A stretch of DNA of 47,078 nucleotides from Parcubacteria group bacterium GW2011_GWD2_43_10. Lineage in GTDB: Bacteria; Patescibacteriota; Patescibacteriia; Veblenbacterales; UBA10138. The stretch covers positions 1 through 47,078 of the forward strand of contig LCEZ01000003.1 in NCBI GenBank assembly GCA_000995845.1, written 5' to 3'. The translations under genes were made by a program, and so were the position numbers. The notes beneath the pieces are model-generated. The model saw nothing but the letters and a program-made list of their open reading frames with translations. It searched no databases and had not been told where the DNA came from. Position 1 is the first letter of the stretch. Every line of letters starts with the position of its first letter. Shown here in pieces: positions 38,753 through 38,992 of this stretch.

Positions 38753-38770
38753 CTTTATTAGCTTACCCTC

Positions 38771-38799
38771 TTGACAATTTTTAATTTTTGTGCTAACCT
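38771..38799 (+). promoter_or_regulatory. Sigma-70-like promoter (consensus -35, extended -10)
   Basis: TTGACA (38771-38776), 17 nt spacer, TGcTAACCT (TG 38791-38792, -10 TAACCT 38794-38799). Confidence 0.45.
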
Positions 38800-38805
38800 A
38801 AGTAT

Positions 38806-38970
38806 TGTTGTTACTAAGAGTTTCGTCTGGTTGGAGGGTATTAGAGAATGCTCCGAAGGCCTGTATAATCACGCTTCTTAGTGTGAGTTGTACACCCTTC
38901 CTGCTTGGATACCAGTATTTTGGTCACTTCAAGCCTTCTCACCTCCAGCCAGCTGAAACTCTTATTTGTT
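38806..38970 (+). ncRNA. Candidate structured RNA (6S-like rod, or a murJ leader). Class unassigned.
   Basis: AAGAGTTTCGTCTGGTTGGAGG (38816-38837) pairs with CCTCCAGCCAGCTGAAACTCTT (38942-38963): 19 Watson-Crick pairs, 1 G-U, and a 2-nt internal mismatch. This closes about 104 nt that contains further short helices. A promoter lies upstream and a U-rich tract downstream. Confidence 0.4.
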
Positions 38971-38992
38971 TATTAGAAAAATTAAACCAGTT

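What the first reader, a model, noticed from the sequence alone, without database searches (positions are those of the whole stretch)
38753..38992. Promoter-preceded ~150-nt rod-like structured RNA between the DUF4012 gene and murJ (6S-like or a novel leader)
The 240-bp gap holds a near-consensus promoter (TTGACA, 17 nt, TGcTAACCT). About 20 nt further on, a 22-nt segment (38816-38837) pairs almost perfectly with 38942-38963: AAGAGTTTCGTCTGGTTGGAGG with CCTCCAGCCAGCTGAAACTCTT, giving one G-U and one 2-nt mismatch.

Inside, further short helices continue the rod: GAGAA/TTCTC, GCT/AGC, GAAG/CTTC and GCC/GGT. They run up to a poorly paired central region that contains a perfect TATAAT (38874-38879) on the 5' strand. 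The 3' strand of the closing helix is followed by ATTTGTTTATT.

A long irregular hairpin with a central bubble is the 6S RNA design. A cis-acting murJ leader or riboswitch is the alternative. The 69-codon ORF predicted here (38805-39014) lies across both helix strands and is probably not real.
Basis: partly seen in the sequence, partly recalled or inferred. Interest (0 to 1): 0.6.

Follow-up and report, generated by a model that had tools for sequence, protein, structure and literature searches.

The report
New Y-shaped RNA gene before murJ
The gap before the cell-wall flippase gene murJ holds a gene for a roughly 150-nt Y-shaped RNA with its own strong promoter; every sampled genome of one order of ultra-small (Patescibacteria) bacteria has it, no catalogued RNA family (6S included) matches it, and its function is still unknown.

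Summary
There is a near-consensus promoter (38771-38799) and a 22-nt closing helix (38816-38837 with 38942-38963). The + strand folds far better than shuffles (z = -8).

The interior is not a rod with a bubble. It is a three-way junction made of a closing stem (P1 and P2), a variable hairpin A and an invariant hairpin B. The TATAAT lies at 38864-38869, not 38874-38879. It is paired inside hairpin A and is not conserved.

The RNA is single-copy in 21 of 21 genomes of the order, and eight further metagenome variants were found. On 29 distinct sequences, 95.5% of cells pair and 31 of 49 pairs show compensatory changes. The 69-codon ORF is not conserved.

murJ follows on the same strand in 20 of 21 genomes, often only 16-45 nt after the helix, while the upstream gene varies.

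Rfam 15 has no match. Neither Rfam's 6S model nor a Patescibacteria-specific 6S model built here detects it. Even so, Rfam-detected 6S RNAs in other classes of the phylum have the same length (153-158 nt) and the same order of elements.

Best reading (0.45): a discrete stable RNA at the head of the murJ transcription unit that acts in trans, with a 6S-like role as the leading specific guess. A cis-acting murJ leader is the main rival (0.3).

The scan met this family before on other DNA (e1-4902404, e1-820937).

The parts
38771..38799 (+). Sigma-70-type promoter: -35 TTGACA (38771-38776), 17-nt spacer, extended -10 TGcTAACCT (38791-38799). The transcription start is inferred at about 38805-38808.
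   Evidence: only 5 such sites occur in the 47-kb window, and another lies upstream of rnpB. TTGAC(A/T) with TAnnnT at 16-17 nt is found upstream of the RNA in all 21 genomes of the order.
38816..38837 (+). P1, 5' strand of the closing helix. It includes the invariant UGGAGG at 38832-38837.
   Evidence: It pairs with 38942-38963. Fourteen of the 18 modelled pairs show compensatory changes, and 96% of cells pair.
38844..38848 (+). P2, 5' strand (GAGAA), followed by a conserved UG and a junction strand of about 8 nt (38849-38856).
   Evidence: It pairs with 38936-38940. Three of 5 pairs show compensatory changes, for example GAGAA/UUCUC becoming GGGAA/UUUCC, and 100% of cells pair.
38857..38898 (+). 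P3 (38857-38859 with 38896-38898) plus hairpin A (38863-38893). The sequence varies but the stem-loop covaries. It contains the non-conserved TATAAT at 38864-38869.
   Evidence: All 3 P3 pairs and 11 of the 13 hairpin A pairs show compensatory changes.
38903..38934 (+). Hairpin B: GCUUGGA-U-ACC, a loop, then GGU-CAC-UUCAAGC. It is almost invariant in sequence and is the most conserved part of the RNA.
   Evidence: All ten pairs are paired in all 29 distinct sequences. The only changes are G-C/G-U/A-U switches. It gave the best BLAST matches across genera.
38936..38963 (+). 3' strands of P2 (UUCUC, 38936-38940) and P1 (38942-38963), with the invariant CCUCCA at 38942-38947.
38964..38975 (+). 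U-rich tail (TTATTTGTTTAT), the inferred 3' end or partial terminator of the RNA.
   Evidence: Fourteen genomes lack the second RNA domain and average 6.4 T in the 10 nt after P1. Seven genomes have a second RNA directly downstream and average 3.4, and in those the U-tail follows the second RNA instead.
38993..40600 (+). murJ (lipid II flippase). The ATG lies 32 nt after the P1 helix (38993-38995), with no promoter-like site in between.
   Evidence: Pfam MurJ, E = 5.5e-82. Start placed. murJ is downstream on the same strand in 20 of 21 genomes and in all 8 new metagenome contigs.

Best explanation
Positions 38806-38975 (+) encode a discrete, roughly 150-160-nt Y-shaped structured RNA of a family that is not in Rfam 15.

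Shown:
- Its own strong sigma-70 promoter, of the same build as the rnpB promoter in this window, is conserved upstream.
- The two ends are clamped by a long helix (P1 and P2).
- The helix closes a three-way junction that carries a variable hairpin A and an invariant hairpin B.

Inferred:
- The RNA is released as a stable species whose 3' end is set by P1 plus a U tract.
- Part of the transcription reads through to express murJ. This mirrors the E. coli ssrS-ygfA unit, which I cite from memory.
- The RNA acts in trans by binding a conserved protein through hairpin B and the junction.
- The leading specific candidate is RNA polymerase, that is, a 6S-like role. I put that sub-case at roughly 0.2-0.25 on its own.
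For: - **Fold.** z = -8 on the + strand. On 29 distinct sequences 95.5% of cells pair, against 35-52% when partners are slid, and 31 of 49 pairs show compensatory changes.
- **Strand.** The model scores 145 bits on the + strand and 25 on the - strand.
- **Distribution.** There is one copy per genome in 21 of 21 genomes, covering 14 genera of the order. Viral contigs hold none.
- **Promoter.** TTGAC(A/T) with an extended -10 lies upstream in 21 of 21. rnpB has the same TTGACA-17-TGnTAnnnT build.
- **3' end.** The U-tail sits after P1 where the RNA stands alone. Where a second RNA follows, the U-tail sits after that RNA, which fits a defined transcript end.
- **Uncoupling from murJ.** In seven genomes the second RNA and a separate murJ promoter (..CGTTATAAT) lie between this RNA and murJ, yet the RNA stays conserved. 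G018 has a whole gene in between.
- **Conservation.** Hairpin B is invariant, while DUF4012 (42-71% identical) and the MurJ N-terminus (52% in G007) have diverged.
- **6S-like points.** No Rfam 6S is found in the order or class. Rfam 6S RNAs of other Patescibacteria are 153-158 nt and have the same order of elements: closing stem, 5' single strand, terminal stem-loop, 3' hairpin. Five 6S-positive genomes have no RNA-sized gap before murJ.
Against: - A discrete stable species and its ends are therefore inferred.
- murJ is downstream on the same strand in 20 of 21 genomes and in all 8 new contigs, while the upstream gene varies. That fits a cis role at least as well.
- In eight genomes murJ starts 16-45 nt after P1, so the RNA is physically the murJ leader there.
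- For the 6S sub-case: both 6S models fail and the reciprocal search fails. The junction is tight, with about 10 nt on the 5' side and a 10-bp hairpin on the 3' side, rather than an open bubble. The RNA is also not at the conserved Patescibacteria 6S position downstream of the short M50 peptidase gene.
Confidence: 0.45

Rival explanations
1. It is a cis-acting leader of the murJ operon. The structured 5' UTR controls how much transcription or translation reaches murJ. It could be a riboswitch or a protein-binding attenuator in which P1 plus the U tract is the terminator. It could also be a put- or EAR-like element that modifies the polymerase that transcribes it.
For: - murJ follows on the same strand in 20 of 21 genomes and in all 8 new metagenome contigs, although the upstream gene changes between DUF4012, an APH-like gene, an S41 peptidase and unknown genes.
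- murJ's start lies 16-45 nt after P1 in eight genomes, with no promoter in between.
- Conserved junction and hairpin B nucleotides with covarying stems is the pattern seen in aptamers.
- Several other families of the class have roughly 150-nt end-clamped RNAs upstream of murJ, one with a weak match to the model (21.8 bits).
Against: - I found no conserved alternative (antiterminator or start-sequestering) pairing. The one complementarity seen in the window (AACCAG with CUGGUU) is absent from close relatives.
- P1 has 18-22 pairs, far longer than the P1 of a typical riboswitch (my own knowledge).
- In seven genomes a second RNA and a separate murJ promoter uncouple the RNA from murJ, yet the RNA is unchanged.
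- In 13 of 28 other families of the class murJ abuts the preceding ORF with no leader at all.
- There is one copy per genome and no second regulated operon.
Confidence: 0.3
2. It is the order's 6S RNA proper: a diverged orthologue or functional replacement that binds sigma-70 holoenzyme as an open-promoter mimic and templates product RNAs. This is a sub-case of the best explanation.
For: - Same size and element order as Rfam-detected 6S RNAs of other Patescibacteria (153-158 nt).
- No other 6S in 21 genomes of the order or 20 others of the class.
- Nothing sits at the usual 6S position after the short M50 peptidase gene.
- Five 6S-positive genomes lack an RNA before murJ.
- It has a strong stable-RNA-type promoter, and its co-location with a downstream ORF recalls ssrS-ygfA (from memory).
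Against: - RF00013 gives no hit at E <= 10.
- The clade-specific 6S model R2 scores a held-out 6S at 46.4 bits but none of 15 family members at E <= 1.
- The family model R1 scores known 6S loci at 10 bits or less.
- The covariation-supported structure is a closed three-way junction, not a large bubble open on both strands.
Confidence: 0.2
3. It is only a structural element with no partner of its own. It could be a terminator or insulator that ends the upstream glycan/DUF4012 operon, or a 5' stem that stabilises the murJ mRNA or is cut by RNase III.
For: - A long perfect-ish helix with a U tail lies between two operons.
- DUF4012 is upstream in 15 of 20 relatives.
- A helix of 18-22 pairs is a plausible RNase III substrate (inference).
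Against: - A terminator or stabiliser needs neither its own consensus promoter, which is present in 21 of 21, nor an invariant 32-nt hairpin B, nor a conserved three-way junction.
- The upstream gene is not constant.
Confidence: 0.05
4. The 69-codon ORF (38805-39014) encodes a small protein.
For: The frame is open in the window.
Against: - Nine of 19 homologues have stops in all three frames, and the indels are not multiples of three.
- Variable columns by codon position are 13/17/9.
- There is no Pfam match.
- Substitutions are compensatory for RNA pairing.
Confidence: 0.01

Closest known systems
6S RNA (SsrS, Rfam RF00013), especially the 153-158-nt 6S RNAs that Rfam detects in other Patescibacteria classes
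   Same: - About 150 nt, with ends clamped by a long closing stem.
- The order of elements matches: closing stem, 5' single strand, terminal stem-loop, small 3' hairpin.
- Strong own promoter and one copy per genome.
- It sits directly before an ORF, as in ssrS-ygfA (from memory).
   Different: - No 6S covariance model detects it, and its own model does not detect 6S.
- The junction is tight, and its 3' side is a 10-bp invariant hairpin rather than an open bubble.
- The genomic position differs: before murJ, not after the short M50 peptidase gene.
Orphan structured bacterial RNAs found by comparative genomics (raiA motif RNA and similar). Named from my own knowledge, not tested by name except through the Rfam scan.
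   Same: - A covariation-supported multi-stem fold with conserved junction nucleotides.
- A lineage-restricted distribution, a recurrent gene neighbour and an unknown function.
   Different: There is no sequence or structure match to any of the 4227 Rfam families. It is restricted to one order of the Patescibacteria class that holds Veblenbacteria and Kerfeldbacteria.
Cis-acting polymerase-modifying or leader RNAs of envelope and polysaccharide operons (EAR of the Bacillales eps operons, HK022 put RNAs). From memory, a lead and not a test.
   Same: A structured RNA transcribed at the head of, or within, a cell-envelope operon, on the same strand as the genes that follow.
   Different: There is no Rfam match. 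It is larger and end-clamped. In seven genomes a separate murJ promoter follows it. Antitermination was not testable here.
The murJ-upstream structured RNAs noted earlier in this scan on other genomes (e1-4902404, e1-820937)
   Same: e1-4902404 describes the same kind of Y-shaped RNA with its own promoter between DUF4012 and murJ. e1-820937 describes the two-domain form, which matches what I saw in seven genomes.
   Different: Those are unchecked AI notes made on other DNA. The window's copy is the one-domain form.

Membership tests
6S RNA (RF00013) | Match to the Rfam covariance model at or near the gathering score | tested here: not met
   No hit at gathering score. No hit at E <= 10 on 451 nt. 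No hit in 20 homologue loci. No hit in the own genome or in 40 relatives.
6S RNA (RF00013) | Match to a model built only from the phylum's own 6S RNAs | tested here: not met
   Model R2 was built from 9 Patescibacteria 6S RNAs. It scores a held-out 6S (L106) at 46.4 bits and none of 15 family members at E <= 1. In the reverse direction, R1 scores 6S loci at 10.1 bits or less.
6S RNA (RF00013) | Length of about 150-200 nt with a long closing stem and a terminal stem-loop | tested here: met
   The RNA is 152 nt. P1 plus P2 give 23 pairs and P3 plus hairpin A give 16 pairs. Patescibacteria 6S RNAs are 153-158 nt.
6S RNA (RF00013) | Large central bubble, single-stranded on both sides, mimicking an open promoter | tested here: inconclusive
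   The 5' junction strand is about 10 nt. The 3' side is 4 nt, then the 10-bp hairpin B, then 1 nt. A 3' bubble hairpin also occurs in the phylum's 6S RNAs, but hairpin B is longer and invariant.
6S RNA (RF00013) | Binds sigma-70 holoenzyme and templates product RNA | not testable with these tools
   This needs biochemistry or small-RNA sequencing.
6S RNA (RF00013) | Synteny of the phylum's 6S: immediately downstream of the short M50 peptidase gene | tested here: not met
   Five of 7 Rfam-6S loci have M50 just upstream. In four genomes of this order that M50 gene is followed by a promoter and rpsL, with no RNA.
Riboswitch / cis-regulatory leader | Lies in the 5' UTR of the regulated gene, on the same strand, recurrently | tested here: met
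   murJ is downstream on the same strand in 20 of 21 genomes and in all 8 new contigs. The start codon is 16-45 nt after P1 in eight genomes.
Riboswitch / cis-regulatory leader | Expression platform with a conserved, mutually exclusive alternative structure | tested here: inconclusive
   I saw none by inspecting the flanks of the 21 genomes. I ran no formal search for alternative pairings.
Riboswitch / cis-regulatory leader | Stays coupled to the regulated gene | tested here: not met
   In seven genomes a second RNA and a separate promoter come before murJ. G018 has a gene in between, and in G017 a HAD hydrolase follows.
SRP RNA (RF00169 / RF01854) | Model match and presence of the partner protein Ffh | tested here: not met
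   No RNA match. No SRP54-type GTPase and no Ffh M domain in 41 genomes.
tmRNA (RF00023) | tRNA-like ends, a tag reading frame and a model match | tested here: not met
   Relatives have an ordinary tmRNA next to smpB elsewhere in the genome. In G000 neither Rfam nor ARAGORN finds a tmRNA anywhere, this RNA included, and smpB is not found in the 90%-complete assembly either.

The most novel reading that the evidence does not exclude
The RNA is a sensor at the head of the murJ unit. On this reading it is a new riboswitch-like or polymerase-modifying leader that tunes expression of the lipid II flippase in response to a cell-wall precursor or an envelope signal. The assorted end-clamped RNAs seen upstream of murJ in other Patescibacteria would then be fast-evolving versions of the same control point.
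Probability: 0.12. Interest if true: 0.85.

Novelty: new variant of a known kind. Interest (0 to 1): 0.55.

Why it matters
- **A well-supported new RNA family.** Patescibacteria have tiny genomes and few known non-coding RNAs. This RNA is universal in one order, strongly promoted and backed by covariation, yet absent from Rfam 15. I also found no paper on it in four full-text searches.
- **If it is a 6S replacement.** It would show how far the open-promoter-mimic design can drift. It would also explain why 6S seems to be missing from a whole class.
- **If it is a murJ leader.** It would be the first RNA control element I know of for the lipid II flippase, which is an antibiotic-target pathway.
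- **The family is ready for experiments.** It has 29 distinct sequences, a clear fold, an invariant hairpin to mutate and a natural one-domain versus two-domain comparison.

Tried and rejected
- **Rod-like 6S fold with a TATAAT bubble:** rejected by covariation.
- **SRP RNA:** rejected. There is no model match and no Ffh or FtsY at all in 41 genomes.
- **tmRNA:** rejected. A normal tmRNA with SmpB exists in relatives.
- **Repeat or mobile element:** rejected. It is single-copy in the own genome and absent from viral contigs.
- **Small protein:** rejected.
- **Homologues outside the order:**
  - The R1 model found none in 147 other genomes of the class, under strict filters.
  - Two motif patterns gave only chance hits.
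  - Filter-free searches of murJ-upstream regions in 12 other families gave only weak hits. The best was 21.8 bits in G057.
- **Orphan look-alike in G020 (contig C11):** it scores 29.8 bits and has no relatives in 150 genomes of the class.
- **Kissing-loop, k-turn and T-loop readings of hairpin B:** considered by eye and dropped for lack of fit. No tool result supports or excludes them.
- **Literature:** four searches found nothing on this RNA or on 6S in candidate phyla radiation (CPR) bacteria.

Full report
**1. What is in the sequence**

The DUF4012 gene ends at 38752, and murJ's likely ATG is at 38993. The gap between them holds three things.
- A promoter: TTGACA at 38771-38776, a 17-nt spacer, then an extended -10 (TGcTAACCT) at 38791-38799. 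Only five sites of this form occur in the 47-kb window, against 1.2 expected. Another one sits in front of the RNase P RNA gene, as TTGACA-17-TGgTACATT at 31409-31437 on the - strand.
- A second helix: GAGAA (38844-38848) pairs with UUCUC (38936-38940).

As RNA, the + strand of 38805-38975 folds at -69.8 kcal/mol. Shuffles give -38.7 +/- 3.9, so z = -7.98. The - strand gives z = -5.

**2. It is conserved, single-copy and confined to one order**

- The window lies in a 750-kb, 60-contig, 90%-complete genome. Its relatives are labelled Candidatus Veblenbacteria, Candidatus Kerfeldbacteria or 'Patescibacteria group'.
- BLAST found the element in 18 relatives. A covariance model (R1) then found exactly one strong + strand match in every one of the 21 genomes of the order. 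These cover 14 genera and score 73-148 bits. The reverse strand scores only 19-27 bits.
- A metagenome scan added 14 contigs, 8 of them new variants. Viral contigs held none.
- Outside the order, R1 found nothing in 147 other genomes of the class, under strict filters. Two motif patterns gave only chance hits.

**3. The fold is Y-shaped, not a rod**

RNAalifold and pair counting agree on the structure.
- P1 (18 modelled pairs) and P2 (5 pairs) form the closing stem.
- A junction strand of about 10 nt begins with a conserved UG.
- P3 plus hairpin A follow. They vary in sequence but covary.
- A 4-nt linker leads to hairpin B, which has 10 pairs.
- One more nucleotide leads into the 3' strands of P2 and P1.

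On 29 distinct sequences, 95.5% of cells form standard pairs. Sliding the partners gives 35-52%, and none of 500 shuffles reaches the observed values. Thirty-one of 49 pairs show compensatory changes: 14 of 18 in P1, 3 of 5 in P2, 3 of 3 in P3 and 11 of 13 in hairpin A.

Hairpin B and the UGGAGG/CCUCCA part of P1 are essentially invariant. Their pairing is therefore consistent with the structure but not proven by covariation.

The TATAAT is at 38864-38869, is paired, and is not conserved.

**4. It is not a protein**

The 69-codon ORF is broken in all three frames in 9 of 19 homologues. Substitutions show no third-position bias, at 13/17/9.

**5. It matches no known RNA family**

- Rfam 15 gives nothing at gathering score, nothing but noise at E <= 10 on 451 nt, and nothing on 20 homologue loci.
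- SRP RNA is excluded. There is no model match, and strikingly no Ffh or FtsY in any of 41 genomes of the class.
- tmRNA is excluded. Relatives carry a normal tmRNA next to smpB. G000 lacks both, which I attribute to the assembly being 90% complete.

**6. The 6S question**

Points in favour:
- No Rfam 6S is found in the order or in 20 other genomes of the class.
- In other classes of the phylum, RF00013 hits 20 of 151 genomes, 7 of them above the gathering score. Those RNAs are 153-158 nt, the same size as this one.
- Their consensus has the same order of elements: closing stem, 5' single strand, terminal stem-loop, small 3' hairpin.
- Five such 6S-positive genomes have no RNA-sized gap before murJ.

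Points against:
- Model R2, built from nine of those 6S RNAs, recovers a held-out 6S at 46.4 bits. It scores none of 15 members of this family at E <= 1.
- R1 scores 6S loci at 10 bits or less.
- The junction is tight rather than an open bubble.
- In 5 of 7 loci examined, the phylum's 6S sits just downstream of a short M50 peptidase gene. In this order that gene is followed by a promoter and rpsL, with no RNA.

Membership in the 6S family is therefore not supported. A 6S-like way of working remains possible.

**7. The link to murJ**

- murJ lies downstream on the same strand in 20 of 21 genomes. The exception is G017, where a HAD hydrolase follows and the contig then ends. murJ also follows in all 8 new metagenome contigs.
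- The upstream gene varies. It is DUF4012 in 15 of 20 relatives, and otherwise an APH-like gene, an S41 peptidase or an unknown gene.
- In eight genomes, including this one, the murJ start codon is 16-45 nt after P1. I see no promoter in that space, so the RNA is physically the 5' end of the murJ transcript there.
- The missing Shine-Dalgarno site is not special. Only 8 of 30 long ORFs in the window have even a loose one.

Against an obligatory cis role:
- In seven genomes (G005, G006, G009, G010, G012, G018, G019) a second structured RNA of about 180 nt follows 8-19 nt after the first. It has a closing stem CAGCAGGCUACC/GGUAGCCUGCUG and a conserved AACUCUCUUCUC. A separate murJ promoter (..CGTTATAAT) comes next.
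- The U-rich tail follows P1 where the RNA stands alone (mean 6.4 T in 10 nt, 14 genomes). Where the second RNA is present, P1 has no such tail (mean 3.4) and the tail follows the second RNA instead. This suggests that the tail marks a real transcript end.
- I found no conserved alternative pairing that would serve as an expression platform.
- In 13 of 28 other families of the class, murJ abuts the preceding ORF.
- Even so, several other families carry roughly 150-nt end-clamped RNAs before murJ: G043, G051, G046, G040 and G057, the last at 21.8 bits to R1. The association may therefore be older than this order.

**8. Verdict**

Shown:
- This is a real, conserved, non-coding, Y-shaped RNA gene with its own strong promoter, sitting at the head of the murJ unit.
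- It belongs to a family that is absent from Rfam.

Inferred:
- It is a discrete stable RNA that acts in trans, with murJ expressed by read-through (0.45 overall).
- A 6S-like polymerase-binding role is the leading specific idea (about 0.2-0.25).
- A cis-acting murJ leader is the main rival (0.3).

The scan has met the same family before on other genomes (e1-4902404, and the two-domain form in e1-820937). Those notes agree with what I found independently, but they are not independent evidence.

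Noticed in passing
whole genome G000 and 40 relatives of the class (not in the window): The whole SRP pathway appears to be missing. No SRP54-type GTPase (Ffh or FtsY; PF00448), no Ffh M domain (PF02978) and no small SRP RNA were found in any of 41 genomes, most of them 90-100% complete. 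The same searches hit 10-14 of 14 control genomes (14/14 for the two protein families). A motif regex on the six-frame translation of G000 also found nothing. I found no paper that states this.
   Followed up: partly
L036:1676-1857, L083:1665-1841, L035:1672-1863, L080:290-477, L082:1672-1859, L051:1664-1853, L052:1660-1837 (coordinates as oriented): A second conserved structured RNA of about 180 nt lies 8-19 nt downstream of the first in seven genomes of the order. It has a closing stem CAGCAGGCUACC/GGUAGCCUGCUG, a conserved AACUCUCUUCUC, and a U-tail, and a murJ promoter follows it. Rfam has no match. Neither blastn nor a search for its core motif finds it in G000.
   Followed up: partly
L084:522-674 (G020 contig C11): An orphan RNA of about 155 nt with a similar build: a 17-bp closing stem, GGAG/CUCC, AAGCCUUCUCCCCUCC and a U-tail. 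It folds with z = -9 and scores 29.8 bits to R1. It lies between minus-strand ORFs, not near murJ. No relatives were found in 150 genomes of the class.
   Followed up: partly
L099-L108 (other Patescibacteria); L146-L149 (this order): In 5 of 7 loci examined, the Rfam-detected 6S RNAs of other Patescibacteria lie immediately downstream of a short (about 205-270 aa) M50 peptidase gene on the same strand. In this order the orthologous M50 gene is followed by a TTGAC-type promoter and rpsL.
   Followed up: yes
L117:121-280, L122 (oriented 1290-1440), L115 (oriented 1269-1405), L116 (oriented 1253-1400), L112:2312-2464(-): Other families of the same class carry roughly 150-nt end-clamped, strongly folded RNAs upstream of murJ (z down to -10.5). 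Some contain GGAGG..AUG..CCUCC-like motifs, and one scores 21.8 bits to R1. These may be distant relatives.
   Followed up: partly
window 31409-31437 (-): The RNase P RNA gene (31018-31397, - strand, 216.7 bits) has a promoter of the same build as the new RNA: TTGACA, 17 nt, TGgTACATT.
   Followed up: yes
window, 30 ORFs of at least 200 aa: Few genes have a Shine-Dalgarno-like motif upstream: 8 of 30 by a loose test. This is despite the invariant GGAGG/CCUCC helix inside the RNA.
   Followed up: no
L076 and L011, between the RNA and murJ (about 208 nt): Two genomes of one genus (G003, G016) carry a long inverted repeat between the RNA and murJ: AATTCCCAAATCCCAAGATCCAATCCCCAAG ... TTTTGGGAATTGGGATTTGGGTCTTGGGGATT.
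   Followed up: no
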